From a virus: a DNA stretch of 64,000 nt. Location of the stretch: IMG/VR virus record IMGVR_UViG_3300045988_081205. One strand, 5' to 3'. Numbering within the stretch: the first letter of the stretch is position 1; every line of letters starts with the position of its first letter. The translations under genes were made by a program, and so were the position numbers. The notes beneath the pieces were generated by a model that saw nothing but the letters and a program-made list of their open reading frames with translations, searched no databases and was not told the DNA's origin. Below are positions 1 through 59,782 of this stretch, piece by piece.

Positions 1-19
1 ATAAAATGTTGGAAAATAC

Positions 20-48
20 TTGACAAGTAAAAAATTTTATGGTATAAT
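20..48 (+). promoter_or_regulatory. sigma-A/sigma-70-type early promoter
   Basis: TTGACA 20-25, 17-nt spacer, extended -10 TGgTATAAT 40-48. The same tacTTGACAa...TGnTATAAT layout recurs across the + strand blocks. Confidence 0.75.
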
Positions 49-61
49 ATAAGAAAGGTTA

Positions 62-140
62 ATAGAGGGTAGCTAACTTCTATTATTTAGGAGAGTTGCT
101 TATACCAACTCTCCACTTTTAATATTTCTTGTATAAGGAG
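62..140 (+). promoter_or_regulatory. structured 5' leader of HNH gene 1 (hairpin 1, terminator-like hairpin 2, loop-SD pairing)
   Basis: Hairpin 1 at 62-83 (ATAGAGG/CTTCTAT). Hairpin 2 at 90-114 (GGAGAGTTG/CAACTCTCC) followed by a T-rich run. Loop CTTATAC (99-105) is complementary to GTATAAG (131-137), which overlaps the SD AAGGAG (135-140). Homologous leaders lie at 2815-2901 and 15258-15336. Confidence 0.6.
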
Positions 141-151
141 AATATATACAT

Positions 152-826
152 ATGGAAGAAAAAGAAATCTGGAAAGATGTAGTTGGGTATGAAGGTTATT
201 ATCAAGTAAGTAATTTAGGACAAGTAAAATCGTTGGACAGGTATGTTAAATACAAGAGAACTGGATTGCGGTTGATAAAAGGTAAAATTTTATCACAGAA
301 AACAGATAGAAATGGATATAAATGTGTATTGATATGTATAGATAACAAAAGGTGGTATGTGACAGTGCATAGACTTGTGGCATTGATGTTTGTACCAAAT
401 CCAGATAATAAGCCACAAGTTGGACATAAAGATGAAACTAAAACAAATAATCGAGCAGATAATCTCGAATGGGTAACTCCAAAAGAAAATAGTAATATGC
501 CAAAACATATAGAAAGATTGTCTGTTGTGTTATCTGGTGAAAATAATCCAATGTATGGAAATTACGGAAAGTTAAGTTCTAGATGGAAAGCTGTTGTAAC
601 TGAAGAAACACGTGCAAAAATGTCTAAGAAATCAAAAGGAAGATTTACAAGAGCAACCCATCCAGCTTCTAAAAAAGTTATGTGTGATGGAATTGTTTAT
701 GATACTATTCTGGATTGTGCAGAGCATTATGGAATGAATCGTAATACATTTAGTAATTATTTGAACGGAAGAGTAAAAATGCCAGATAAATGGAAAAATC
801 TAGGGCTTTCTTTTTATAAGAAATAA
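152..826 (+). CDS. free-standing HNH homing endonuclease (NUMOD4-like N-terminus + HNH_3-like core)
   Basis: N-terminal EIWKDVVGYEGYYQVSNLGQVKS and VHRLVA...GHKDETKTNNRADNLEWVTPKEN motifs. Paralogue of 2910-3473. Own promoter and SD. Confidence 0.85.
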   Translation: MEEKEIWKDVVGYEGYYQVSNLGQVKSLDRYVKYKRTGLRLIKGKILSQKTDRNGYKCVLICIDNKRWYVTVHRLVALMFVPNPDNKPQVGHKDETKTNNRADNLEWVTPKENSNMPKHIERLSVVLSGENNPMYGNYGKLSSRWKAVVTEETRAKMSKKSKGRFTRATHPASKKVMCDGIVYDTILDCAEHYGMNRNTFSNYLNGRVKMPDKWKNLGLSFYKK

Positions 827-914
827 AATGAAAAAGGATGAAAACGGTGAATGGGTGACGCTGAACGAAAAAATTGTGGAGATGAAATGTTGGAAGAAAT
901 TGGAGGTGTAAATA

Positions 915-1262
915 ATGGATACTGTTGAATTTTTGAATGAAGGTACTAGGATGTGTAATAATTATGAAGCATGTGTTGGTTGTCCTATGGAGGAAACAGA
1001 TGATTGCTGTATGGTTAATATGAATCTCAAGCAAATGATAAGTATTGTGGAGCAATGGGCAAAAGAACATCCTATAAAAACAAGGCAGAGCGAATTGCTT
1101 AAGCTATTTCCTGAAGCTAGTGTGCTATATGATGAATATCTAAATATCTGTCCAGCTCAACTTTCAAGTGAATGTCGTGATAAGGAAACTGGTGGATGTT
1201 ATGACCCCGGAATGGATTGTGGCAAATGCAAACGTGATTTTTGGCTAAAAGAAATTGAATGA
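915..1262 (+). CDS. hypothetical Cys-rich protein
   Basis: 115-aa ORF preceded by GGAGGTG. Several Cys pairs. No recognised family. Confidence 0.55.
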   Translation: MDTVEFLNEGTRMCNNYEACVGCPMEETDDCCMVNMNLKQMISIVEQWAKEHPIKTRQSELLKLFPEASVLYDEYLNICPAQLSSECRDKETGGCYDPGMDCGKCKRDFWLKEIE

Positions 1263-1270
1263 GGTGAATG

Positions 1271-1432
1271 ATGACAAATCAAGAAGCTGCCACATTGATA
1301 GTCAAGGAATATGGCAATTATAGAGGAATTTGTATTGAATATAAGCAATTTTCTTATATCAACCCAAATCTATCTGAAGCTATTGCTATGGCTATAGCAG
1401 CATTAAATAAAGAAAATAATAAGGAGGATTAA
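1271..1432 (+). CDS. hypothetical small protein (53 aa)
   Basis: Not in the ORF track (<60 aa). ATG follows GAGGTGA and fills the gap between neighbouring genes in the same orientation. Confidence 0.35.
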   Translation: MTNQEAATLIVKEYGNYRGICIEYKQFSYINPNLSEAIAMAIAALNKENNKED

Positions 1433-1440
1433 GTAAGTAA

Positions 1441-2073
1441 ATGAGTAAAGCAATTATGATTATTGGGGCAAGCGGTTCCGGTAAGACAACTAGCCTAGAG
1501 CATCTTGACCCAAAGCTGACATTTTACATTGATGCAGATGGTAAAGGACTAAGTTGGAAGGGATGGCGCAATCAATATAATAAGACTAATAAGAATTATT
1601 TTGTATGTGATGACCCTAATTCTATTTATAGTCTAATGCAGCAAATCAATGATAAACAGAAGCAGATTAAGTATCTTGTGATTGACACACTGAATGGCTG
1701 TATGGTAGCAGATGAGATGCGCCGAGCTAAGGAAAAGGCGTATGACAAGTGGATGGATTTAGCGCAGAGCGTATATAGCATTGTTGATTTCTCTAATAAG
1801 ATGCGTGATGATCTTACGGTGATTCTCATTGGTCATACTCAGACAAGCGATGATGGATTTACTTGTATGCTCACCAATGGGCGCAAGCTCAATAAGATTT
1901 GTCTTGAAAGCAAGATGACCACTGTGCTACTATCTCGAATCAACGATAATGGCGAATATGTGTTTGAAACAAGAGCAAAGAATAGCACGGCTAAGACCCC
2001 AAGAGGCGCGTTTGAAAAGGATGAAATTCCTAATGATATTATGTTAGTCATTGATGCTCTGAAAGATTTCTAA
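1441..2073 (+). CDS. P-loop ATPase, Sak4-like / AAA_24-type recombination protein
   Basis: Walker A GASGSGKTT at the N-terminus, ~210 aa. Followed by a DUF669-like gene, as is typical for phage Sak4 modules. Confidence 0.65.
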   Translation: MSKAIMIIGASGSGKTTSLEHLDPKLTFYIDADGKGLSWKGWRNQYNKTNKNYFVCDDPNSIYSLMQQINDKQKQIKYLVIDTLNGCMVADEMRRAKEKAYDKWMDLAQSVYSIVDFSNKMRDDLTVILIGHTQTSDDGFTCMLTNGRKLNKICLESKMTTVLLSRINDNGEYVFETRAKNSTAKTPRGAFEKDEIPNDIMLVIDALKDF

Positions 2074-2151
2074 CTACTCCAGCTAAAAAAGCTGAGTAAA
2101 ATATAAACAATCTATTTATTAAAATCAAATTAAAGCGAGGTTAAATTTATT

Positions 2152-2763
2152 ATGAAGCGAATCAATAATTGGGAGAATATTCAGGAAAGCACATCTTTTA
2201 AGCGTCTAACGCCAAATGGCTATATTGTTAAGATTCTCAATGTAGAAGATCATCCTGAAAAGGAATATCTCAAGATTTATTTTGACATCGTAAAGGGCGA
2301 TGATAAGGGTTATTTCAAGAAGCAGTATGACGGCGATACGCGCAAGGAACGCAAATGGCCCAATGCTGGTACATTCATCCGTTCTTATAAGGATTCTGCG
2401 GCATCTATGTTTAAGGGATTTATCAATGCCATTGAAAAGTCCAATAAGGGCTATCAGTGGAATTTTGACGAAAAGACGCTTGTCAATAAGGTCGTTGGTC
2501 TAATTATTGCCGATGAGCAGTATCAGAATCAGAAGGGTCAGGTTCGTGTCCGTAACTATGTCGCGGCCGTTCGCTCTGTTGAGACTATTGAAAAGGACGA
2601 ATATGAAATTCCTGCGCTCAAGGAGCTGACCACCACAAAGACCACAACTGCTCCTGCTAATGACCTAATCCCTGATTTTGGCGATGTGTTTAACACTACA
2701 CCAACCCCTGCTGAATCAGAAAATCCTTGGGATGATTCTGACGAGAATAATCCCTTCATGTAA
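2152..2763 (+). CDS. DUF669-like protein (putative ssDNA-binding partner of Sak4) with acidic C-terminal tail
   Basis: Position directly after the AAA_24-like ATPase. Acidic tail DDSDENNPF resembles SSB tails. Confidence 0.5.
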   Translation: MKRINNWENIQESTSFKRLTPNGYIVKILNVEDHPEKEYLKIYFDIVKGDDKGYFKKQYDGDTRKERKWPNAGTFIRSYKDSAASMFKGFINAIEKSNKGYQWNFDEKTLVNKVVGLIIADEQYQNQKGQVRVRNYVAAVRSVETIEKDEYEIPALKELTTTKTTTAPANDLIPDFGDVFNTTPTPAESENPWDDSDENNPFM

Positions 2764-2772
2764 AAATAATAC

Positions 2773-2801
2773 TTGACAAAAAGTTAATGCTGTGATATAA
2801 T
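2773..2801 (+). promoter_or_regulatory. sigma-A-type early promoter
   Basis: TTGACA 2773-2778, 17-nt spacer, TGaTATAAT ending at 2801. Confidence 0.75.
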
Positions 2802-2814
2802 TACAATAGAGGTT

Positions 2815-2901
2815 GATAAGAAGTTGCAAATTCTTATCATTTGAAGGAAGGTTGCTCGTCTCGACCTTCCTTACTCTACAAATTAAATCTAAGACGAGGA
2901 G
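2815..2901 (+). promoter_or_regulatory. structured 5' leader of HNH gene 2
   Basis: Hairpin 1 at 2815-2838 (GATAAGAA/TTCTTATC). Hairpin 2 at 2844-2872 (AAGGAAGGT/ACCTTCCTT). Loop CTCGTCT (2855-2861) is complementary to AGACGAG (2892-2898), which overlaps the SD GAGGAG. Confidence 0.6.
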
Positions 2902-2909
2902 ATTTTATT

Positions 2910-3473
2910 ATGGAAGAAATTTGGAAACCAGTTAAAGTTAGGGGAGAAGATTTCACAGGATATTATGAAGTTAGCAATTTAGGAAGAATTAAAAAATTGT
3001 CAACATGGAGTTGTGACGGTAAAAGATTTCTAAAAGAGCGGATTATGAAACAAACTCTTGATAAGAAGGGTTATTTGACTGTAAATTTGCAAAAGGGAAG
3101 TCGCCGTTTTACTCGTATATTTGTGCATAGAATAGTAGCAGAGGCATTTATTCCTAATCCAAATGATCTACCTCAAGTTGGGCATAAAGACGATACGGTA
3201 TTAAAGACTAATAACTGTATTGAAAATCTTTATTGGACAACTAACAAAGAAAATGCAAATACAGAAGGAAGAAAACAAAGATTATCTATGTCTCATATGG
3301 GCGCAAAAAATCATGGTGCTAGAGCTGTGATATGTGAAGGCATTACATTTCCAACGATGTCCGATTGCGCTAAACATTATAATATATTTGTTCAAAATAT
3401 ATGTGCGTGGTTAAATGGGAGAGAAAAAATGCCAAACCTATGGATTCAAAGAGGACTAAAAAGAGTTGATTAA
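2910..3473 (+). CDS. free-standing HNH homing endonuclease (NUMOD4-like + HNH_3-like)
   Basis: MEEIWKPV...GYYEVSNLGRIKKL and VHRIVAEAFIPNP...GHKDD...NLYWTTNKEN. The ATG at 2910 is preferred over the track start 2841 because of the SD GAGGAG and the alignment with 152-826. Confidence 0.85.
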   Translation: MEEIWKPVKVRGEDFTGYYEVSNLGRIKKLSTWSCDGKRFLKERIMKQTLDKKGYLTVNLQKGSRRFTRIFVHRIVAEAFIPNPNDLPQVGHKDDTVLKTNNCIENLYWTTNKENANTEGRKQRLSMSHMGAKNHGARAVICEGITFPTMSDCAKHYNIFVQNICAWLNGREKMPNLWIQRGLKRVD

Positions 3474-3499
3474 CGATAAGAATTCATAAAAATATTAAA

Positions 3500-3526
3500 G
3501 GCGGGGCTTGACAATCCCGCCTTTTT
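3500..3526 (+). terminator. intrinsic terminator
   Basis: GGCGGG (3500-3505) / CCCGCC (3516-3521) stem followed by TTTTT. Confidence 0.6.
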
Positions 3527-3536
3527 ATTATATGAT
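3508..3536 (+). promoter_or_regulatory. sigma-A-type promoter whose -35 lies in the terminator loop
   Basis: TTGACA 3508-3513, 17-nt spacer, TATGAT 3531-3536. Confidence 0.5.
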
Positions 3537-8352: not shown

Positions 8353-8381
8353 TTGACAATCAACCTCCTTTATGATATAAT
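8353..8381 (+). promoter_or_regulatory. sigma-A-type promoter
   Basis: TTGACA 8353-8358, 17-nt spacer, TGaTATAAT ending at 8381. Confidence 0.75.
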
Positions 8382-8408
8382 CACTATATCAACAATAAGG
8401 AGGTTGAT
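8359..8408 (+). promoter_or_regulatory. 12-bp inverted repeat pairing the promoter spacer with the Shine-Dalgarno of 8415-8849
   Basis: ATCAACCTCCTT (8359-8370) is the exact reverse complement of AAGGAGGTTGAT (8397-8408). Confidence 0.6.
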
Positions 8409-8414
8409 TTTATT

Positions 8415-8849
8415 ATGAGTAAATTCAAAGTAGGAGATAAGGTGGCTTATGTAACCAAGCCAGATGAAGAAATTGGCGAGGTGAATTGTGTCGTAGAGGA
8501 CAGATATGGTTGTCATATCTTTGTTGCGTTCAACAAAAAGAAAGTATATGAAATGCAACTAGCCGGTTATAACTATGATGAAGATAAGTTAGTTAAGATT
8601 GACGAGTATACCTTATCAGATGATGAAATCTATACCATGCTCAAGCCGAAGCTCGAAAGTATGTGTATGAAAACAGAATATCACAAATTATTGCCAACTG
8701 TATTTGAATTAGAATTTGAATCACAAAAGGATTATGACCCATATGTTCCAGAAAGTGATGTAATTAAAGCTATTGCTCTAGCATATCGTTCTGGTTATCT
8801 TAGAGCTAAGAAAGGAAGACCATTTAAGATTGGAGGAGAGAAAGAATGA
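8415..8849 (+). CDS. hypothetical protein
   Basis: 144-aa ORF with a strong SD. Confidence 0.65.
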   Translation: MSKFKVGDKVAYVTKPDEEIGEVNCVVEDRYGCHIFVAFNKKKVYEMQLAGYNYDEDKLVKIDEYTLSDDEIYTMLKPKLESMCMKTEYHKLLPTVFELEFESQKDYDPYVPESDVIKAIALAYRSGYLRAKKGRPFKIGGEKE

Positions 8850-12057: not shown

Positions 12058-15000
12058 ATGCAAACAGTAAAATTAACCCCAATGCGCATGATATTCAATA
12101 ACCCTGAATCCAATTTCTCAATTATATCATGCAGCACTAAGGATGAAACAATAGAAATCAACCCTCAATATGGCACAATCAGCCTAAAAGGAACTGGCAT
12201 TGCCGATCTGAAAATGGGGCAATCCATTGATTGTATCATAGAGCCATGTGTGGATGATAAATACAAATACAGCTATAAATTCATTGGCTTTGCTGGATTT
12301 GTAGCTAAAGATGGCAAATTCAACCTAACTGAAAAAGCCGAGCTACAGACATTGCGTAGTTTAATGACTAATGGGCAAGCTGAATCATGTCATGCCGCAT
12401 ATCCTCATTTTGTCAGTATGGTGCTGAATGGTGAAGCCGACAAGCTAGACTACAAAAAAATTCGTGGCGTAGGCAAGGTGTTATTGCCAAGATATATTGA
12501 TAAAATCAAGACGATCAACAAGCGTGTGGAATTTATGGGAGAAACATATGCTTGGGGCATTGAGCATGATGAGGATATAAACAAAATCGCCGCGGCATAT
12601 AAGAACGTATATGGATTCAGCCAAGATATAAATACCAATCCATATGCTATTATGATTAACTTGCTTGAATGGTCATTTGATAGAGCAGATAGGGTGATAA
12701 CTAAGAAAACAGCAAAATGGCTGGATAGCTATGAACGATGTGAGGCGGCTACTATCTATGCTCTAAAGCATAATGAGCTGGACGGCAATACAAGGATGCA
12801 AGCCAAGATGTTGTTTGATATGGTAAAGCGCAAAGCCCCTCAATGCGTTCATCATCTCCTCGATGTTGTGACGAAATCGGCGCAAGTACACTATGACGCT
12901 CCTAGCCAAAACACAGCTCTACAAGTCACATATAGTGCTGAACAGCATATTGCTGATGTTATCAAGAAAAAAATAGCCAATCCACATTACTATCCTATGG
13001 ATTGGCAGAAGTTTACAAGTGTAGACGGTTTAGAGCTGACTGATGAACAAACGCAGATTCTTGAAATGGCTTGTAAACAAGATGTTATGATGCTGACTGG
13101 TTCGGCTGGTTGTGTTGATTGCGATACTGAATTTTTTACTGGTACTGGTTGGAAGCGAATTGCGGATTATCAAGACGGCGACAGGGTGCTTCAGTACAAC
13201 GAGGACGGAACAGCAGAACTTGTAAATCCCATTGCTTATATCAAGAAGACATGCAATACGTTATGGCATTTTGAGACGCTTCGAGGATTAAATCAAACTG
13301 TCTGTGATGATCATAGAATTATATATGAAACAAGAGACGGTGTATTAAAAGAATGTAATATTGAACAACTAAAACAAATGCACTTACCGTCAACCAAGAA
13401 TTTCCAAGGGAGGTTTCTCACAACATTCAACCTTGGTGGTTCTGGTATAGATTTAAATGAATGGCAAATTCGTCTAATGTGCGCGGTTTTGGCAGATGGG
13501 CATTTCAACGCCGGTAATAAAAATAGCACAAGATGTACATTTCATATAAAAAAGCAACGTAAGAAAGATAGACTGATTTATCTTTTCAATAAAAATGGAC
13601 TTGAATATAAAGAACATGAAAGTACAGAAGAAGGATATACTGACTATCATGTGTATGTTCCAAGGAGAGAAAAGCAATTTACAGAGTATTGGTATGGGTG
13701 TTCTAATGAACAATTAAAGATAATTGTAGATGAGGTTGTTTATTGGGATGGATGTATAAGATACACAAAAAATAATACTAAGTATTTAACTTATTGTTCA
13801 TCTATAAAATCAGACGCAGATTTCATTCAATATGCAGCATCCGCGATTGGAATTAGAGCGTCTATAAGCACTTGTAATAGAATTGGTGAAATCAAGCATT
13901 TGAACGGGAAAGAATATATTAGAAAGACAAATGTATATACGGTTCATTTTTCCAACAGAACAAAAGTAGGATTGTGTTCAGATAATAGAAGTAAATGTAC
14001 TAAAACGCCCATAACTCAAGTGCCAACCACTGATGGATATAAATACTGCTTTACAGTACCATCACATATGCTCGTACTAAGAAGAAAAGATTGCATTTTC
14101 ATTACTGGCAACTGTGGCAAAACAACAAGTATGCAAGCACTTGTTAATATGCTAGATAGCAATGGGTACACATATACTCTACTTGCCCCGACAGGAATAT
14201 CTAGCAAAAAATTACGAGAAGCAACGCAAAAAGAAGCGTCCACCATCCATATGTTTTTAACCATGAGTGAGAACCTAGGAGATTATCTAATCATAGATGA
14301 AGCCAGTCAAATTAGCGTCCATTTGCTATCAATGCTATTTGATAAGGTAACAGACCGTACTAAGATAATCTTCATAGCCGACCCATCTCAGCTTGCATCT
14401 ATTGCTTGCGGCAACATTGTTGAGGATATGCTTGATAGCGGCATCGTGCCTGTATGTAACTTGACTAAGGTATTCAGATATAACACATCTGGCATTATTA
14501 CTATAGCTACTGATGTACGAAATGGAGTAAATGACCATCTGACAGATACTTTCACAGATTATAAGTTCATTGAAACTGATACATTAGTAATCAAGCAAAT
14601 TGAGCAAGAATATGCGCGGCTCTTAGCAGATGGATACAGTAAGGATGATGTGCTGATTCTATCTCCATTCAATAAGGGTGATGTTGGCTCATTGGCTATC
14701 AATGCGGCGATTCAAGCCAAATTCAATCCAAATGAATTAAGCAAGGTTGGGCATACTGTCAATGATGTACCTATATATTTCAAAGTTGGCGATAAGGTAA
14801 TCAATAAAAAGAATGAATATGCTATGCCGCTTGTTGATGATGATACGGCTTTTGTAGCAAATGGCGATATTGGCACAGTGATGGAAATTGTGCCTGATGA
14901 AAAAGAGCCATATATGATTGTGCGATATGATTGCGGCGATTGTATAGTAGATAAGGCGCATATCAAGAATACGCTACTTAGTTATTGTGTCAGCATCCAT

Positions 15001-15210
15001 TCAGCGCAAGGTAGCCAAGCAAAGGCTGTGATTGTAGTGATTGATAGAAGCCACGTAAGGATGCTATCGCGCAACTTGTGCTATACAGCGGTATCACGCG
15101 CACAAGAGCGGCTAATATTGATTGGAGATGAGGCGGCTATTCAAGATGGGCTAAAGGTGCAAGAGGAAAAGGAAAGGGATACTTATTTGCGATATTTTTT
15201 AATAAAATAA
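12058..15210 (+). CDS. RecD/Dda-like SF1 DNA helicase precursor containing an intein in the P-loop
   Basis: The Walker A motif is split as GSAG | intein | CGKTTS. C-terminal SIHSAQGSQ and YTAVSRAQERL helicase motifs. Confidence 0.8.
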   Translation: MQTVKLTPMRMIFNNPESNFSIISCSTKDETIEINPQYGTISLKGTGIADLKMGQSIDCIIEPCVDDKYKYSYKFIGFAGFVAKDGKFNLTEKAELQTLRSLMTNGQAESCHAAYPHFVSMVLNGEADKLDYKKIRGVGKVLLPRYIDKIKTINKRVEFMGETYAWGIEHDEDINKIAAAYKNVYGFSQDINTNPYAIMINLLEWSFDRADRVITKKTAKWLDSYERCEAATIYALKHNELDGNTRMQAKMLFDMVKRKAPQCVHHLLDVVTKSAQVHYDAPSQNTALQVTYSAEQHIADVIKKKIANPHYYPMDWQKFTSVDGLELTDEQTQILEMACKQDVMMLTGSAGCVDCDTEFFTGTGWKRIADYQDGDRVLQYNEDGTAELVNPIAYIKKTCNTLWHFETLRGLNQTVCDDHRIIYETRDGVLKECNIEQLKQMHLPSTKNFQGRFLTTFNLGGSGIDLNEWQIRLMCAVLADGHFNAGNKNSTRCTFHIKKQRKKDRLIYLFNKNGLEYKEHESTEEGYTDYHVYVPRREKQFTEYWYGCSNEQLKIIVDEVVYWDGCIRYTKNNTKYLTYCSSIKSDADFIQYAASAIGIRASISTCNRIGEIKHLNGKEYIRKTNVYTVHFSNRTKVGLCSDNRSKCTKTPITQVPTTDGYKYCFTVPSHMLVLRRKDCIFITGNCGKTTSMQALVNMLDSNGYTYTLLAPTGISSKKLREATQKEASTIHMFLTMSENLGDYLIIDEASQISVHLLSMLFDKVTDRTKIIFIADPSQLASIACGNIVEDMLDSGIVPVCNLTKVFRYNTSGIITIATDVRNGVNDHLTDTFTDYKFIETDTLVIKQIEQEYARLLADGYSKDDVLILSPFNKGDVGSLAINAAIQAKFNPNELSKVGHTVNDVPIYFKVGDKVINKKNEYAMPLVDDDTAFVANGDIGTVMEIVPDEKEPYMIVRYDCGDCIVDKAHIKNTLLSYCVSIHSAQGSQAKAVIVVIDRSHVRMLSRNLCYTAVSRAQERLILIGDEAAIQDGLKVQEEKERDTYLRYFLIK
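13111..14112 (+). mobile_element. intein (334 aa) with LAGLIDADG homing-endonuclease domain
   Basis: Starts CVDCDTEFF (block A-like) and ends FITGN followed by Cys +1. Internal LMCAVLADGHF and IVDEVVYWDGC LAGLIDADG-like motifs. Removal restores GSAGCGKTT. Confidence 0.8.
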
Positions 15211-15214
15211 TATA

Positions 15215-15243
15215 TTGACAAATATCTATATATGTGATATAAT
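15215..15243 (+). promoter_or_regulatory. sigma-A-type early promoter
   Basis: TTGACA 15215-15220, 17-nt spacer, TGaTATAAT ending at 15243. Confidence 0.75.
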
Positions 15244-15257
15244 ATAAATAAGGGTAA

Positions 15258-15336
15258 ATGGAAGGTGTACAACTTCTATTCTTTAAGGAGAACGCTTATC
15301 TCGTTCTCCTACCTTAATATTTTCTAAGATAAGGAG
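15258..15336 (+). promoter_or_regulatory. structured 5' leader of HNH-like gene 3
   Basis: Hairpin 1 at 15258-15279 (ATGGAAG/CTTCTAT). Hairpin 2 at 15287-15309 (GGAGAACG/CGTTCTCC). Loop CTTATCT (15295-15301) is complementary to AGATAAG (15327-15333), which overlaps the SD AAGGAG. Confidence 0.6.
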
Positions 15337-15347
15337 AAATATGTGTT

Positions 15348-16019
15348 ATGAGTAAATTCAAAAATTTGACAGGAATGAGATTTGGGAAACTAACAGCGGT
15401 TAAAATAGTAAAAAATTGTGAGCATAAGTGTAAAAGTGTAATTTGGCAATGCAAATGTGATTGCGGAAATATAGTGAACGTTAGAAGTAGTAATTTAATA
15501 AACGGACATACAAAATCCTGTGGATGTATAAGAAAAGAAATAATCATGAACAGAGACAAAGAACGAGCGATTCATAATGATTGTAACTCGAGGCTTTATA
15601 GAATTTGGCATGGTATGAAAAATAGATGTAATAATCCAAACGCTTACAACTATAAAAATTATGGTGGTAGAGGTATTACGATTTGTCCAGAATGGGAAGA
15701 ATTTATTCCATTTAGAGAATGGTCCAACAGCAACGGTTATGCAGACAATCTTACTATTGATAGAATTGACGTCAATGGAAATTATTGCCCTGAAAATTGT
15801 AGATGGGCTGATATAAAGACCCAAAATAACAATACCACTAGAAACAGATTGCTAACAGCGTTTGGAGAAACAATGAATGTTGCTCAGTGGAGTGAAAAGG
15901 TAGGTATAAAAAGAGGAGTTATATATACTAGAATCGATACTTATAAATGGGATGTGGAAAAAGCTCTAACAACACCAGTTGAGCAAAGAAAGCCTAGAAT
16001 TAAAGGAGATGCTGATTAA
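15348..16019 (+). CDS. putative free-standing homing endonuclease (HNH/AP2-associated family)
   Basis: RLYRIWHGMKNRCNNP..YKNYGGRGITICPEW and IDRIDVNGNYCPENCRWADIKTQNNN motifs. Own promoter and a leader like the two NUMOD4-HNH genes. Confidence 0.6.
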   Translation: MSKFKNLTGMRFGKLTAVKIVKNCEHKCKSVIWQCKCDCGNIVNVRSSNLINGHTKSCGCIRKEIIMNRDKERAIHNDCNSRLYRIWHGMKNRCNNPNAYNYKNYGGRGITICPEWEEFIPFREWSNSNGYADNLTIDRIDVNGNYCPENCRWADIKTQNNNTTRNRLLTAFGETMNVAQWSEKVGIKRGVIYTRIDTYKWDVEKALTTPVEQRKPRIKGDAD

Positions 16020-16301
16020 ATGACGGTTGGTGAATTAAGGAAACGGCTTGAAAGATATAACGACGATGAAATTATTGACATGAAGTGCTTAGTTGACAAC
16101 AATTACTATAAAGGATATATTAAAGATGTCTATAAGCTATTCGTGTCAAAGGCACAGAAAGAGCAACCAGTGACCATTGAATTAAAAGTAGATTGGAATT
16201 TATCCATCAGACAGAGATTTGATATGTTGGGTAAAGCAGTAGAAGATGCTATTGACCGTAACTCAACAGAGCTTACAAATATTGCATATGGAGGACGCTA
16301 A
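16020..16301 (+). CDS. hypothetical protein
   Basis: 93-aa ORF, TAAATG coupling. Confidence 0.55.
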   Translation: MTVGELRKRLERYNDDEIIDMKCLVDNNYYKGYIKDVYKLFVSKAQKEQPVTIELKVDWNLSIRQRFDMLGKAVEDAIDRNSTELTNIAYGGR

Positions 16302-49093: not shown

Positions 49094-50671
49094 TTATTCT
49101 AATGAATCTCGGCTTGCTTCGCCACTTTCGGTAAGTGATGTTTCTGACTGACGGGGTCTACCACCCTCGTTATCTGAGCCGCCCTTGGTTGTATTGGTAT
49201 TTTTCAAGAGCTGTGTATATTTATCAATCCAACCGGTATATTTACTTTCAGCCATCATTGCTTCAAATACTTGTGGTTGATAGCCCGATACAGATGCCCA
49301 TGTCTGCATAGGTAGAACAATGCCAGAATCAGCCATTTTTTTCACTTTATCAAATCGAGCTTCACGCTCAAATGGGTAGTTAGACCCGTCGAAGATAAAT
49401 TTCCACTTGTATTTCTTTGTTAGCTGATTGACATAAAATTCTAGGAAATTGCTAAACTGTGGATATAGCGGCTTCATAGTCTGGTACATGTCATTAAGTC
49501 CAGCCTCAATCTCAGCGTTGGACTGTCTATCAGAGCTATAAATAACACGGCTCACACCAGAACCAACACCAGCAGATGTAGCAAGTTGAGTTGAATACAT
49601 ATCTGTATTCTTATCCTCAAACTGGTAGAACTTAATATTTTCAAGCGGCATTGCGGCAAGTTTTGACAATGAGCCAAGACCAGCCTTTGCCTTCTGCATA
49701 AATCCACCTAGCGTCTTTGGGTCAATAGCAAACTGATTCGCTTTAGTACCAGATTTAGCCGAATCAAATAGACGAATTTCACCAGCTAGAATAGCATAGG
49801 CTGACGCAATATCCTTGTTATACTGCAACTGAGCAATATCATCATTAGCAATGGCATTCTTCAGAAATGGAGCTAAAAATGGCGTATTATTAAATGTGCT
49901 AGGATTCCACTTAAATACCCATGCACCATCACTAGGTGATGTTTGCGTCCACATAGCATATGCTCCATTGCGTCTATTTAGTGGGTTTGTAGGGCGATAA
50001 TTTTTGAACGCTTCTTCCTCAGAGCCAAATACGCGCTGATAATATTTCTTAAATGCTGGGTCAAACCCATTGATGTCTACACCAGCTTGCAGGAAATAGC
50101 TCATGTCAAAATCAAACAACATGCCCTTTTCCCAATATCCAGTAAGTAGACATCTATCTTGTGGCAAAATCTGTAGGGCGAATTTCATTCCTTTGTTGCC
50201 CCACTTCGTCTTTCTGAACCAAGTGAAATATGTTTCATGCGTCACAATCTGTGCTATAACTTTACCAAATTCGGCCTTATAATCAAATTTGTTCAAAAAA
50301 TCATATACGCGCCGCTTATCCTCTTGGTATGCGCTTGATTCATAATCACTCTGAGTAAAAGCATTGATACAAACAGGCTGTAGATCAAATGATAGAGCGT
50401 TACAATATGCTTGTAGAGTTCTGGCAAATATCATGTCCCAGAATTTCATATATTCCATATAGCCCTGAATTTGCTCTGAATTTTCCTTATATTCAGCAAG
50501 AGCCTTGCGGATTTTATCAGAGCTTGGGGTTTCTGGATTGTTGTTCAAACTCTGCAATAGTTGATTACTCAACATTGGTGACCAAAAGCCAAACTGGTCA
50601 TAAGCATATAACGCCTGTGCAAACTCTGTTACAGCTTGAGCCTGTTCAAATGTTACTAGCGGTTCTGCCAA
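49094..50671 (-). CDS. portal protein
   Basis: 525 aa. First large ORF after the large terminase. Acidic C-terminus. TTG start after AAGGAGGG. Confidence 0.6.
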   Translation of the reverse strand: MAEPLVTFEQAQAVTEFAQALYAYDQFGFWSPMLSNQLLQSLNNNPETPSSDKIRKALAEYKENSEQIQGYMEYMKFWDMIFARTLQAYCNALSFDLQPVCINAFTQSDYESSAYQEDKRRVYDFLNKFDYKAEFGKVIAQIVTHETYFTWFRKTKWGNKGMKFALQILPQDRCLLTGYWEKGMLFDFDMSYFLQAGVDINGFDPAFKKYYQRVFGSEEEAFKNYRPTNPLNRRNGAYAMWTQTSPSDGAWVFKWNPSTFNNTPFLAPFLKNAIANDDIAQLQYNKDIASAYAILAGEIRLFDSAKSGTKANQFAIDPKTLGGFMQKAKAGLGSLSKLAAMPLENIKFYQFEDKNTDMYSTQLATSAGVGSGVSRVIYSSDRQSNAEIEAGLNDMYQTMKPLYPQFSNFLEFYVNQLTKKYKWKFIFDGSNYPFEREARFDKVKKMADSGIVLPMQTWASVSGYQPQVFEAMMAESKYTGWIDKYTQLLKNTNTTKGGSDNEGGRPRQSETSLTESGEASRDSLE

Positions 50672-50913
50672 ATTTCGCCCTCCTTTCTTTATTTTATTGT
50701 TTATATATTAGAGCAGTTAGATTATGGACTTCATTAACGTATGCCAAAGTTCATTGAGCTACTTGTCCTCCCTATCCGCTCGTTTTATATTTTTGAGTGT
50801 TTTTGTTTTCAGCTTTTTGATTAAACCTAAGTTGGAACTTGGATTCCACACAACCCTAATAGCACCTCCACGGCAACATACCAACATAGCAGCCGCTTCA
50901 TAGGTAAGTCATA

Positions 50914-52758
50914 TCACCAGACAAGTTGAATAGAATCTATATCAAACTCATCTTCTTGTAACTGTTGCTGCCATGCGTTCTCAATTAAATCAATAATGTA
51001 ATTACCATACATAATGGTTACAATTCTATCCTTTGTGCCTGTGCGCGGTTCTTCTAGTTTAATTTTATCCTGCTTAATAACCGTCTTTAGATTAACAGCC
51101 TCTATAACCATCATATCAGTTTGACCATATGGCTCAAGCTGATTAGCTAATTCTTCAGCGGTATATTGATAATATTCACCGCTATCCGTTAGTTCGTTCT
51201 GATAATCTTGCATAGAAATAAGGAATTTCATATTGTTGGTTTCAAGTTGTTTACGCAATGATAACCAACCGCTACTGTTTAATTCAGGTGTGCCAATAAT
51301 CGGTATCAAACATGGTACAGCATTTTTATCAACTGTGCGGTTATGATAATCGTCTATCTTAGCTTTAGATACAACCTGATATTTATCAGCCAATCCAAAT
51401 CCGCGCGAATCCCATCTTGCGCCCAAATCGGGTCGTGGTAATGGTTCTGTAAGGTGGTTTGCTATTACCTCACCACCACTACGCGAATCGAATAGACAAT
51501 AATCTGCATCATATACCCATTTAAGGTATCTAAATCTATCAGATGCACCGATTGTATCAGATGCGTCATGACCCTCTATATAATCAACATGACGCTCGAA
51601 TCTATTCTTTTTACTGTCCCAATGAGCCGACATAAGAGTAATAATTGTATTATCGTTCTTTGTACAACCAGTGGTGTTTGCAAATGCCAAGTCCATTGAC
51701 AGTATGCGTATCTCATCCTCTTTCTTTTCTGGGAAATCAGGTTGTTCGCCAGCAAAGAATTGTAATGCAGTAGGTGGACGGAAACAATGCTCAATAATTT
51801 GGTTCTCTTTGAATGACTTTAGATTAAAGAACGCATCATCGCCCTCTGAAATCATCTCGTTCAAATCTTCCATTCTGAAGTCCATTTCGCCGCCAGCCTT
51901 ATCATTCCAATAGTCAGCCCATGTCTTAAACCCATTATCAATAACCATAAATATATCACCAGCAAAAATATTACATCTTACTTTGGTGTCGGTAAATATA
52001 CGAGTAAATGTCTTTTTGAACAATAGCCAGAACCACTCAAACTTATATCTGGCAGATGTGATATAGATATGTTGACATTCCTCTTTCCAACGAGGATTAT
52101 TACCATATACAGGGTTACTAAGATATTTGGCTTGTCTTGGATGCGCCATCTTCTCAAAGACGGAATCGACCATACCTTTTTTGAGCAAACGGGCTTCTTC
52201 GTATGTAAGAATTGTTGCTCTTGGCCCACGAGAGCTATCTTGGCATGGTAATACACGCAAAGTAGAACCGTTAAGCTTATTCTCTATTCTATAACCATCT
52301 TCTGGTTTAGTGATAACCAAATATTCGTGCTCATACATATATAAGAGATATGGCGATAATTTTTTAATCAATTCATCCCTTATTTTATCTTCAACCATCT
52401 TGTTCGCCTGTGCAACAGTTGATGATGTAATTACCGCCTCTGTATATGGATAAAGATTCATCTTTACAATATTACCTAGACCAACGATAAAAGTTTTAGA
52501 TAAGCCACGACAACATATTGCGAAGAACACATCTGATATGCCCATCAGATATATCATTATCATCTGAAATGGGCGCAACTTGATACCAAGAACTAAATCA
52601 ACATATATATGCCAATTTCGGCGTAACTAAAATAAAGTCAGCCACTCTATAGCATTTTCCTCTTTCTGCGCATCTTTCATTGCATTTTCTTTTGCTTTTG
52701 TTGTAATTAGGTGGTTTCCAAGGAACTTGCGTCTCAAGCCCCCCATCTGACTTTTCAT
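50914..52758 (-). CDS. terL: terminase large subunit, interrupted by one in-frame TAG (52627-52629)
   Basis: The segment YVDLVLGIKLRPFQ...CCRGLSKT (Walker A-like) ...ILTYEEA (Walker B-like) ...SMDLAFANT (nuclease Asp) contains no start codon between the TAG and the TTG at 52578. An ATG at 52758 with SD GGTGGTGA lies 43 codons upstream in the same frame. Confidence 0.7.
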
Positions 52759-59469: not shown

Positions 59470-59498
59470 ATTATATCATATAATTGATTATTTGTCAA
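59470..59498 (-). promoter_or_regulatory. sigma-A-type promoter driving the leftward RNAP operon (proximal)
   Basis: On the - strand: TTGACA (59498-59493), 17-nt spacer, TGaTATAAT (59478-59470). Confidence 0.7.
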
Positions 59499-59513
59499 TA
59501 CTAAAATTTCTAC

Positions 59514-59542
59514 TTGACAAAAATTGATTGATGTGATATAAT
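59514..59542 (+). promoter_or_regulatory. sigma-A-type rightward promoter (upstream copy)
   Basis: TTGACA 59514-59519, 17-nt spacer, TGaTATAAT ending at 59542. No ORF follows for ~260 nt. Confidence 0.65.
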
Positions 59543-59562
59543 CTCTTATAAATTATAAATAT

Positions 59563-59591
59563 ATTATACCATATATTACAGTATTTGTCAA
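59563..59591 (-). promoter_or_regulatory. sigma-A-type leftward promoter (distal), face to face with the promoter at 59514
   Basis: On the - strand: TTGACA (59591-59586), 17-nt spacer, TGgTATAAT (59571-59563). Confidence 0.65.
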
Positions 59592-59675
59592 TAGTTAATT
59601 TATTCATAATTTATTAACATATAATTCATAATACTGTAATATTTATATGATATAATATCTAGTATATATAATTAC

Positions 59676-59721
59676 AATTTAACTATTATCTACTCATAAA
59701 TTCGTAGATAATAGTTAAATT
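59676..59721. repeat. 18-bp perfect inverted repeat
   Basis: AATTTAACTATTATCTAC (59676-59693) / GTAGATAATAGTTAAATT (59704-59721), 10-nt loop. Confidence 0.8.
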
Positions 59722-59753
59722 GATGTGAAAAATCAATTTATCAAAAATTATAC

Positions 59754-59782
59754 TTGACAAGTGCAAAATGATGTGATATAAT
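59754..59782 (+). promoter_or_regulatory. sigma-A-type promoter of the right-hand early block
   Basis: TTGACA 59754-59759, 17-nt spacer, TGaTATAAT ending at 59782. Confidence 0.75.

What the first reader, a model, noticed from the sequence alone, without database searches (positions are those of the whole stretch)
49..151. Conserved two-hairpin leader with a covarying loop-to-Shine-Dalgarno pairing upstream of HNH endonuclease gene 1 (first of three copies)
All three free-standing homing-endonuclease genes (152, 2910, 15348) have their own consensus promoter followed by a ~100-nt leader of the same design. Hairpin 1 is a near-palindrome with an 8-nt loop of form GU-NNNN-AA whose centre is itself palindromic (gTAGCTAa, gTTGCAAa, gTGTACAa). 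Hairpin 2 keeps its stem by compensatory changes: GGAGAGUUG/CAACUCUCC here, AAGGAAGGU/ACCUUCCUU at 2844, GGAGAACG/CGUUCUCC at 15287. It is followed by a U-rich run, so it looks like a terminator. In every copy, 7 nt of the hairpin-2 loop are perfectly complementary to the 7 nt overlapping the 5' side of the SD, and both partners change together. The pairs are CUUAUAC/GUAUAAG (99-105/131-137), CUCGUCU/AGACGAG (2855-2861/2892-2898) and CUUAUCU/AGAUAAG (15295-15301/15327-15333). Three independent covariations argue for a selected pseudoknot or alternative pairing that blocks ribosome access. This would be an expression brake on potentially toxic endonucleases. I do not recognise it as a named RNA motif. 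Leaders 1 and 3 are clearly homologous even though their ORFs belong to different endonuclease families, so promoter plus leader may travel as a cassette.
Basis: seen in the sequence. Interest (0 to 1): 0.78.

Follow-up and report, generated by a model that had tools for sequence, protein, structure and literature searches.

The report
Kissing-loop leader on phage endonuclease cassettes
Three selfish endonuclease genes in this gut-phage fragment each carry a strong promoter and a conserved folded RNA leader, and this leader most likely buries the ribosome-binding site through a loop-to-loop contact, as a built-in brake that moves with the gene.

Summary
All three leaders (49-151, 2802-2909, 15244-15347) follow perfect TTGACA-17-TGnTATAAT promoters and share two hairpins. 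A covariance model found 52 copies (47 distinct) in related human-gut phage contigs, always upstream of HNH-type homing endonuclease genes or their decayed remnants. The pairing between the hairpin-2 loop and the stretch just before the SD holds through at least 11 different sequence pairs: 96% of cells are paired and 6 of 7 positions show compensatory changes.

A 4-bp helix (P1) closes a three-way junction. The 7-nt partner is itself the loop of a weak hairpin (P4), whose 3' arm is the SD core GAGAA. The contact is therefore an intramolecular kissing loop that buries the whole SD. Hairpin 2 is not a general terminator. Empty-site comparisons show that promoter, leader and gene are gained or lost as one unit, and the same leader type precedes different endonuclease families.

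The most likely function is constitutive damping of endonuclease translation. This is inferred, not shown. No Rfam family matches. The closest analogues are the T4-type SD-sequestering hairpins and the L5-L13 kissing loop of cobalamin riboswitches. The always-palindromic hairpin-1 loop remains unexplained.

The parts
20..48 (+). Copy 1 promoter: -35 TTGACA (20-25), 17-nt spacer, TG at 40-41, -10 TATAAT (43-48)
54..57 (+). Copy 1 P1 5' strand AAAG. It pairs with CTTT at 116-119 and lies at or next to the expected transcription start.
   Evidence: Variants AAAG/CTTT, AGAG/CTCT, AAGG/CCTT and GAGG/CCTC.
60..85 (+). Copy 1 hairpin 1 (P2): TAATAGAGG, loop GTAGCTAA (69-76, palindromic core TAGCTA), CTTCTATTA
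90..114 (+). Copy 1 hairpin 2 (P3): GGAGAGTTG, 7-nt loop CTTATAC (99-105), CAACTCTCC
116..119 (+). Copy 1 P1 3' strand CTTT, directly after hairpin 2. It closes the three-way junction.
126..142 (+). Copy 1 hairpin P4: 5' arm TTCTT (126-130), loop GTATAAG (131-137, complementary to 99-105), 3' arm GAGAA (138-142, the SD core). The SD AAGGAGA lies at 135-141.
152..826 (+). HNH endonuclease gene 1 (NUMOD4 + HNH_3 + NUMOD3)
2773..2801 (+). Copy 2 promoter (TTGACA 2773-2778, TATAAT 2796-2801)
2808..2909 (+). Copy 2 leader: P1 AGAG 2808-2811 with CTCT 2874-2877. P2 2814-2839 (loop GTTGCAAA 2823-2830). P3 2844-2872 (loop CTCGTCT 2855-2861). P4 AAATCT 2885-2890, loop 2891-2899 (partner AGACGAG 2892-2898), AGATTT 2900-2905.
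2910..3473 (+). HNH endonuclease gene 2 (NUMOD4 + HNH_3). The segment 2749-3485 (promoter, leader and gene) is absent from related phages.
15215..15243 (+). Copy 3 promoter (TTGACA 15215-15220, TATAAT 15238-15243)
15250..15347 (+). Copy 3 leader: P1 AAGG 15250-15253 with CCTT 15312-15315. P2 15257-15280 (loop GTGTACAA 15265-15272). P3 15286-15310 (loop CTTATCT 15295-15301). P4 TTTCT 15321-15325, loop 15326-15334 (partner AGATAAG 15327-15333), AGAAA 15335-15339.
15348..16019 (+). HNH endonuclease gene 3 (phrog_374 type). The segment ~15171-15996 (promoter, leader and gene) is absent from relatives L026, L030 and L044.

Best explanation
What it is
Each cassette is a mobile unit made of a consensus sigma-A-type promoter, a ~95-nt structured leader and an HNH homing endonuclease gene.

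The fold
- The leader RNA forms a three-way junction: P1 of 4 bp starting at about +1, hairpin P2 and hairpin P3.
- A 5-7-nt A-rich linker follows, then a weak hairpin P4. The 3' arm of P4 is the SD core (GAGAA).
- The 7-nt loop of P3 is fully complementary to the 7-nt loop of P4, whose last three bases are the 5' part of the SD (AAG or AGG).

How it most likely works
- The P3-P4 kissing contact clamps the marginal P4 stem shut, so the entire SD is base-paired and 30S binding is reduced.
- The kissing helix is perfectly Watson-Crick, so it should form without any ligand. This gives a constitutive brake that keeps endonuclease synthesis low despite a perfect promoter and a perfect SD.
- The paired 5' end may also stabilise the message.

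Shown: the helices and their covariation, the exclusive association with endonuclease genes, and gain or loss as a unit.
Inferred: that the fold lowers translation.
For: Structure
- P2 and P3 are each 9 of 9 pairs with compensatory changes. The kissing helix is 96% paired with 6 of 7 positions covarying. P4 is 93.6% paired; pair 100/116 splits A-U 21 to U-A 21.
- At least 11 loop/partner sequence pairs occur, including CTGGCT/AGCCAG in the divergent L173.
- Where the SD is AAAGGA or GAGTA instead of GAGAA, the P4 5' arm changes to UCUUUU or UUUACU.
- The P4 helix run averages 5.87 with its own partner against 4.09 +/- 0.22 with swapped partners.

RNA level, + strand
- P2 and P3 hold 75 G.U against 3 A.C non-Watson-Crick cells.

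Energetics
- P4 alone is only -1.0 to -2.6 kcal/mol.
- The kissing duplex is -4.8 to -9.0 kcal/mol. SD to anti-SD pairing, computed with an assumed generic Firmicutes-type 16S 3' tail because the host is unknown, is -8.2 to -9.4 kcal/mol. That suits a brake rather than a lock.

Context
- All 52 copies precede HNH-family ORFs or their remnants.
- The cassette is the indel unit.

Precedent
- SD-sequestering structures regulate the T4 I-TevI, I-TevII, I-TevIII and segB genes and Aeh1 mobE (PMC2988022).
- In a cobalamin riboswitch, making the RBS kissing loop perfectly paired gives ligand-independent repression (PMC5028336).
Against: - There is no expression, probing or toeprint data.
- RNAalifold recovers only P2 and P3. 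P1 and P4 rest on covariation counts in A/U-rich sequence and on a model-fitted alignment.
- The kissing helix is A/U-rich and comparable in strength to, or weaker than, SD to anti-SD pairing, so repression could be mild.
- A dedicated consensus promoter combined with a permanent brake looks wasteful, which hints at conditional control.
- The palindromic P2 loop has no role in this model.
- The transcription start is inferred from promoter geometry only.
Confidence: 0.6

Rival explanations
1. Conditional switch. The three-way junction is a sensor for a metabolite, a phage or host protein, or another RNA. The sensor strengthens or breaks the P3-P4 kissing contact, so endonuclease translation is timed during infection. 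This would work like the cobalamin riboswitch regulatory module.
For: - The topology matches the cobalamin riboswitch expression platform: P1, a short single-stranded linker, then an RBS hairpin whose loop kisses a loop of the upstream domain (PMC5028336).
- Junction bases are nearly invariant: G11, U12, U41-43 and A46 of alignment A6.
- P4 is too weak to stand alone.
- A consensus promoter plus a consensus SD suggests that high output is wanted at some moment.
Against: - The kissing helix is perfectly paired with no bulges. In the cobalamin system that arrangement abolishes ligand dependence.
- The junction is small, with few conserved unpaired bases.
- No Rfam riboswitch matches.
- No alternative mutually exclusive helix was found. 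The promoter region shows no excess complementarity to the leader.
Confidence: 0.15
2. The leader mainly stabilises or insulates the message. A paired 5' end and compact fold protect the transcript from 5'-end-dependent RNases, or isolate the inserted gene from neighbouring mRNA structure. This would keep downstream phage genes expressed after insertion. SD burial would be secondary.
For: - P1 begins at about the predicted +1.
- Cassettes sit inside operons and the endonuclease stop can overlap the next start (ATTAAATG at 16017-16022).
- The cassette promoter would drive the downstream genes.
Against: - Stabilisation does not require a loop sequence that tracks the SD flank through at least 11 variants.
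- It also does not require a P4 arm that tracks SD variants. Both point to the SD as the target.
Confidence: 0.1
3. Promoter, hairpin 1 and hairpin 2 make a short terminated sRNA. Its terminator loop pairs in trans with the SD region of endonuclease mRNAs, giving antisense control and attenuation.
For: - Copy 1 hairpin 2 is followed by ACTTTTAATATTT and is flagged as terminator-like.
- There are weak sub-threshold Rfam resemblances to the Listeria sRNAs rli28 and LhrC (E 0.08 and 3.4).
Against: - Copies 2 and 3 and most homologues have no U-run after the stem.
- The bases after the stem covary with the 5' end as helix P1.
- Each leader's loop matches its own SD flank, so action in cis is sufficient.
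Confidence: 0.05
4. The inverted repeats act in DNA, as an operator for a dimeric protein, a recombination site or a cruciform, and not in RNA.
For: - Hairpin 1 with its loop is almost a perfect 24-26-bp DNA palindrome lying just downstream of the promoter.
- The loop core is always palindromic: TAGCTA, TTGCAA, TGTACA or TGCGCA.
Against: - Non-Watson-Crick cells are 75 G.U against 3 A.C on the + strand. A double-stranded DNA element would show no such asymmetry.
- The arm sequences change freely by compensation, which a sequence-specific DNA-binding protein would not tolerate.
- The loop-loop complement has no DNA rationale.
Confidence: 0.03

Closest known systems
SD-sequestering hairpins of T-even phage homing endonuclease genes (I-TevI, I-TevII, I-TevIII, segB, Aeh1 mobE)
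   Same: Both are cis RNA structures that pair the ribosome-binding site of a phage homing endonuclease gene and limit its translation (PMC2988022). Both include free-standing HNH genes inserted between phage genes.
   Different: In T4 a single stable hairpin forms only on read-through transcripts, because a late promoter lies inside it. Here the promoter is upstream of the whole structure, and there is no promoter-leader complementarity. The SD hairpin is weak and is clamped by a kissing loop from a three-way-junction domain. The promoter and leader form a conserved, portable module shared by several HNH families.
Cobalamin riboswitch regulatory kissing loop (L5-L13)
   Same: Both have an upstream structured domain closed by P1, a short single-stranded linker, and a small hairpin that carries the RBS and whose loop kisses a hairpin loop of the upstream domain. 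Docking hides the RBS (PMC5028336).
   Different: There is no cobalamin aptamer here and no Rfam hit. The kissing helix has 7 perfect Watson-Crick pairs without the conserved bulged or non-canonical positions that make the riboswitch ligand-dependent. No ligand is implied.
ColE1 RNA I / RNA II type 7-nt loop-loop kissing complexes
   Same: Two 7-nt hairpin loops are complementary over their whole length (my own knowledge of that system; not tested here).
   Different: Those complexes form in trans between antisense RNAs that control plasmid replication. This contact is within one mRNA leader and targets an SD.
Retroviral dimerisation initiation site (HIV-1 DIS)
   Same: The hairpin-1 apical loop is a 6-nt self-complementary core flanked by unpaired purines (G-UNNNNA-A). 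Four different palindromes are conserved. This is the sequence signature of a homodimerising kissing loop (my own knowledge).
   Different: There is no evidence of dimerisation here, and a phage mRNA leader is a different biological setting. This is a resemblance only.

Membership tests
T4-type homing endonuclease translational control hairpin | The SD of the endonuclease gene is base-paired in a conserved RNA structure | tested here: met
   The SD is split between the kissing helix (AAG or AGG) and the P4 3' arm (GAGAA), and both covary.
T4-type homing endonuclease translational control hairpin | The proximal promoter lies inside or after the inhibitory arm, so promoter-proximal transcripts escape repression | tested here: not met
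   The promoter lies upstream of all helices. Promoter-to-leader duplex energy is no better than shuffled controls: mean -14.8 against -16.1 kcal/mol.
Cobalamin riboswitch (Rfam clan CL00101) | Cobalamin aptamer core recognisable by covariance model | tested here: not met
   There was no Cobalamin hit at gathering score in the window, nor at E<=10 in bases 1-200.
Cobalamin riboswitch (Rfam clan CL00101) | Kissing loop between a receptor hairpin loop and the RBS hairpin loop, interrupted by unpaired or non-canonical positions | tested here: not met
   A kissing loop is present, but it is a continuous 7-bp Watson-Crick helix in nearly all 47 variants.
Intrinsic (Rho-independent) terminator | A G+C-rich stem immediately followed by a U-run | tested here: not met
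   Only copy 1 (90-114) passes the scan. Copies 2 and 3 do not, and the homologues have ACUCUA or ACCUUA after the stem.
Any Rfam 15 family | Score at or above the family gathering threshold | tested here: not met
   The only hit in the window is drum RNA at 50792-50906(-). The best hit on the leader is rli28 at 26.9 bits against a threshold of 45.
Kissing-loop dimerisation element (DIS-like), for hairpin 1 | Self-complementary hexamer in an apical loop, flanked by unpaired purines | tested here: met
   The loops are GTTGCAAA (35), GTGTACAA (8), GTAGCTAA (2) and GTGCGCAC (2) among 47 distinct leaders.
Kissing-loop dimerisation element (DIS-like), for hairpin 1 | RNA homodimer formation through the loop | not testable with these tools
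   This needs native gels, SEC or probing of wild-type against loop-mutant RNA.
Free-standing homing endonuclease cassette | Presence/absence polymorphism between otherwise collinear genomes, with an endonuclease-family ORF | tested here: met
   Relatives lack window 2749-3485 and ~15171-15996 precisely. The ORFs are HNH families. Cleavage and homing were not tested.

The most novel reading that the evidence does not exclude
The leader is more than a passive brake. It may be a portable, factor-responsive kissing-loop translational switch whose three-way junction senses a signal, or whose always-palindromic hairpin-1 loop makes the mRNAs dimerise. In that case selfish endonuclease cassettes would carry their own timing device. 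The at least 11 naturally orthogonal loop pairs would then form a ready-made library of programmable RNA-RNA regulators.
Probability: 0.15. Interest if true: 0.82.

Novelty: new variant of a known kind. Interest (0 to 1): 0.62.

Why it matters
- Homing endonuclease genes must be expressed enough to spread but not enough to harm the phage. Outside the T4 family, little is known about how they manage this.
- This is a well-supported, previously uncatalogued RNA family in human-gut phages. It shows a different solution: a self-contained promoter-plus-leader module that moves with the gene and is swapped between endonuclease families.
- The design is compact. A weak SD hairpin is clamped by a 7-bp loop-loop contact, and the contact has diversified into many specific sequence pairs. 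That makes it directly testable and possibly useful as a set of orthogonal translational attenuators.
- The conserved self-complementary loop of hairpin 1 is an unexplained feature that deserves an experiment.

Tried and rejected
- Megablast of window 1-3000 against cultured phages found no match. The nearest cultured relative by the RecD-like helicase is Enterocloster phage PMBT24, at 35% identity.
- The first DNA pattern on viral contigs was too loose. Tighter patterns worked.
- The scan of bacterial genome representatives gave 82 pattern matches. The 80 loci listed were searched with the model and gave no hit, so there is no sign of the motif in sequenced bacterial genomes or prophages.
- HNH homologues from Bacteroidota-type phages (L001, L002, L004) have unrelated upstream regions.
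- The terminator reading was rejected.
- A T4-like arrangement, with the promoter inside the inhibitory hairpin, was rejected for these leaders. A different promoter in the window, at 8353, does show it.
- I looked for a second copy of the hairpin-1 palindrome near each leader as an intramolecular partner. There was none at a consistent place.
- No upstream small ORF exists in the leader (reading of the sequence).
- My automatic helix parser over-extended stems through G.U pairs and failed on stems with a mismatch. I used the model-based alignment instead.
- RNAalifold does not predict P1 or P4.

Full report
**1. The observation**

The three sites read exactly as described. Each has a perfect TTGACA-17-TATAAT promoter with a TG two bases upstream of the -10 hexamer. 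The window holds eight such perfect promoters against 0.10 expected by chance. The other five have short leaders, so the ~100-nt leader is specific to these three genes.

The ORFs at 152-826 and 2910-3473 carry NUMOD4 and HNH_3 domains. The ORF at 15348-16019 belongs to a different HNH group, phrog_374. phmmer with the three HNH proteins of the window, plus two leader-associated proteins from related loci, found no further homologue in the window. Single-sequence folding gives both hairpins in all three leaders.

**2. Relatives**

The window has no close cultured relative. Megablast found nothing, and the best helicase match is Enterocloster phage PMBT24 at 35% identity. Related uncultured contigs were fetched through the helicase and the HNH proteins, and through DNA patterns in viral and metagenome collections. 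Several of the metagenome records are labelled human gut.

A covariance model built from the three leaders, using only hairpins 1 and 2 and no promoter, found 52 copies, of which 47 are distinct. Of 82 promoter-pattern matches in bacterial genome representatives, the 80 loci listed gave no model hit. Every promoter I inspected upstream of a model hit is a perfect consensus promoter, although the model contained no promoter.

**3. Structure**

On the 47 distinct sequences, all 9 pairs of hairpin 1 (P2) and all 9 pairs of hairpin 2 (P3) show compensatory changes. These helices are 95% and 98.8% paired, and RNAalifold recovers both independently.

The pairing between the P3 loop and the 7-mer before the SD is 96% paired, and 6 of 7 positions show changes on both sides. 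Sliding the partner by 1-3 columns drops pairing over all helices to 39-57%. The loop/partner pairs seen are:
- CTTATAC/GTATAAG
- CTTATCT/AGATAAG
- CTCGTCT/AGACGAG
- CTTGTCT/AGACAAG
- CCTATAT/ATATAGG
- CTTACTC/GAGTAAG
- CTTACAT/ATGTAAG
- CTTACCT/AGGTAAG
- CCTATTC/GAATAGG
- CCTACT/AGTAGG
- CTGGCT/AGCCAG, in the divergent copy L173

Three single-base variants give U.G pairs. One copy has a C.A mismatch; it is L169, whose ORF is truncated to 48 aa.

In P2 and P3 the non-Watson-Crick cells are 75 G.U against 3 A.C. This places the selection on RNA of the + strand, not on double-stranded DNA.

**4.

P1: The four bases at about +1 (AGAG in most copies, AAAG in copy 1, AAGG in copy 3, GAGG in L045) pair with CUCU, CUUU, CCUU or CCUC one base after P3. 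This closes a three-way junction and occupies the place of the supposed terminator U-run. Support is moderate: 87% of cells are paired and there are few variants.

P4: The 7-nt partner is the loop of a short hairpin. The conserved UCUU just upstream of it pairs with GAGA just downstream, which is the core of the SD. In 30 distinct versions, positions 2-5 of this stem pair in 29-30 cases. Position 5 alternates U-A (17), A-U (8) and C-G (3), and position 6 alternates A-U and U-A. Where the SD is AAAGGA the 5' arm becomes UCUUUU, and where it is GAGUA the arm becomes UUUACU. The mean helix run is 5.87 with the leader's own partner against 4.09 +/- 0.22 with swapped partners. The tool count gives 93.6% paired, with one pair split 21 A-U to 21 U-A.

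P4 alone is worth only -1.0 to -2.6 kcal/mol, and RNAalifold does not predict it. The contact is therefore an intramolecular kissing loop between P3 and P4. With it, the whole SD (A/G)AGGAGA is paired: the first three bases in the loop-loop helix and the rest in the P4 stem.

**5. Hairpin 1 loop**

The 8-nt loop is G-U-NNNN-A-A (A-C in two copies). Its six-base core is TTGCAA, TGTACA, TAGCTA or TGCGCA, and every one is a palindrome. The middle bases cannot pair within one loop. No second copy lies at a consistent place nearby. The three copies in the window each carry a different palindrome. Self-complementarity therefore seems to be selected, and homodimerisation through a kissing loop is the obvious RNA-level reading. 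Nothing here tests it.

**6. Genomic behaviour**

Relatives L026, L030 and L044 join the helicase gene directly to the next gene and lack window ~15171-15996. Six relatives lack window 2749-3485. In both cases the missing piece is promoter + leader + ORF.

Locus L003 has leader 1 with a single base difference, in the promoter spacer, while its ORF is only about 50% identical in protein.

All 52 copies precede either ORFs of two HNH superclusters or decayed remnants of such ORFs; the divergent extra copy at L173 precedes a DUF7487+HTH protein. The same leader type (for example, loop CCTATAT, CTTATCT or CTTACTC) precedes members of both HNH superclusters. This argues against autoregulation by a particular endonuclease and supports a portable module.

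**7. Function**

The kissing duplex is -4.8 to -9.0 kcal/mol. SD to anti-SD pairing is -8.2 to -9.4 kcal/mol, computed with an assumed generic Firmicutes-type 16S 3' tail because the host is unknown. The fold should therefore lower 30S binding rather than abolish it.

The biological precedent is the set of SD-sequestering hairpins of T-even phage endonuclease genes (PMC2988022). There, however, an internal late promoter frees the SD. Here the promoter is upstream of everything, and the promoter region shows no excess complementarity to the leader.

The closest mechanical precedent is the L5-L13 kissing loop of cobalamin riboswitches. It has the same layout: P1, a short linker, then an RBS hairpin. 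In that system, irregularities in the kissing helix make docking ligand-dependent, and a perfectly paired version represses without ligand (PMC5028336). The perfect 7-bp helix here therefore points to a constitutive brake. A conditional switch remains possible.

Hairpin 2 as a terminator is rejected. Only copy 1 passes the terminator scan.

**8. Novelty**

No Rfam family matches the leader. The best hit, rli28, scores 26.9 bits against a threshold of 45. Full-text searches found no description of such a leader. The principle, hiding the SD of a homing endonuclease gene, is known. The architecture, its portability with a promoter and the palindromic loop are new. I rate it a new variant of a known kind.

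Noticed in passing
window 8353-8414: The spacer of the consensus promoter (8360-8370, TCAACCTCCTT) is the perfect reverse complement of the SD region 8397-8407 (AAGGAGGTTGA) of ORF 8415-8849. Read-through transcripts could hide the SD in an 11-bp hairpin, while transcripts started at this promoter could not. This is the T4 I-TevI logic. The module is conserved in relatives in front of different ORFs, with a G.U-compatible variant TCAGCCTCC.
   Followed up: partly
window 50792-50906 (-): There is a full-length drum RNA (RF02958, 54.2 bits; function unknown) between two large ORFs, 49094-50671 and 50914-52578, both on the - strand. Neither ORF has a Pfam match.
   Followed up: partly
window 3497-3536: A terminator-like hairpin AAAGGCGGGG-CTTGACAA-TCCCGCCTTT carries the -35 TTGACA of the next promoter (TATGAT at 3531-3536) in its loop. 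Terminator and promoter overlap. The element is part of the backbone and is kept in relatives that lack the cassette.
   Followed up: no
window 59470-59782: Four perfect consensus promoters lie within about 320 bp, two on each strand, in an A/T-rich intergenic region. This is probably the divergent early control region of the phage.
   Followed up: no
L166:237-350, L166:7325-7446, L169:4444-4690: Intact promoter and leader are followed by decayed endonuclease ORFs: none, 5 aa and 48 aa. L169 also has the only C.A mismatch in the kissing helix.
   Followed up: partly
window 15990-16022, and L026 around 12100-12150: The last ~25 nt of HNH gene 3 match the 3' end of the helicase gene in relatives with an empty site. 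This stretch contains the SD of the next gene, and the HNH stop overlaps the next start (ATTAAATG). The insertion therefore preserved the translational signals of the downstream gene.
   Followed up: partly
L173:1924-2601: The most divergent leader (loop CTGGCT with partner AGCCAG, P1 GGTGG/CCACC) precedes an HTH + DUF7487 protein rather than an HNH protein. The module may therefore also serve another putative endonuclease family.
   Followed up: partly
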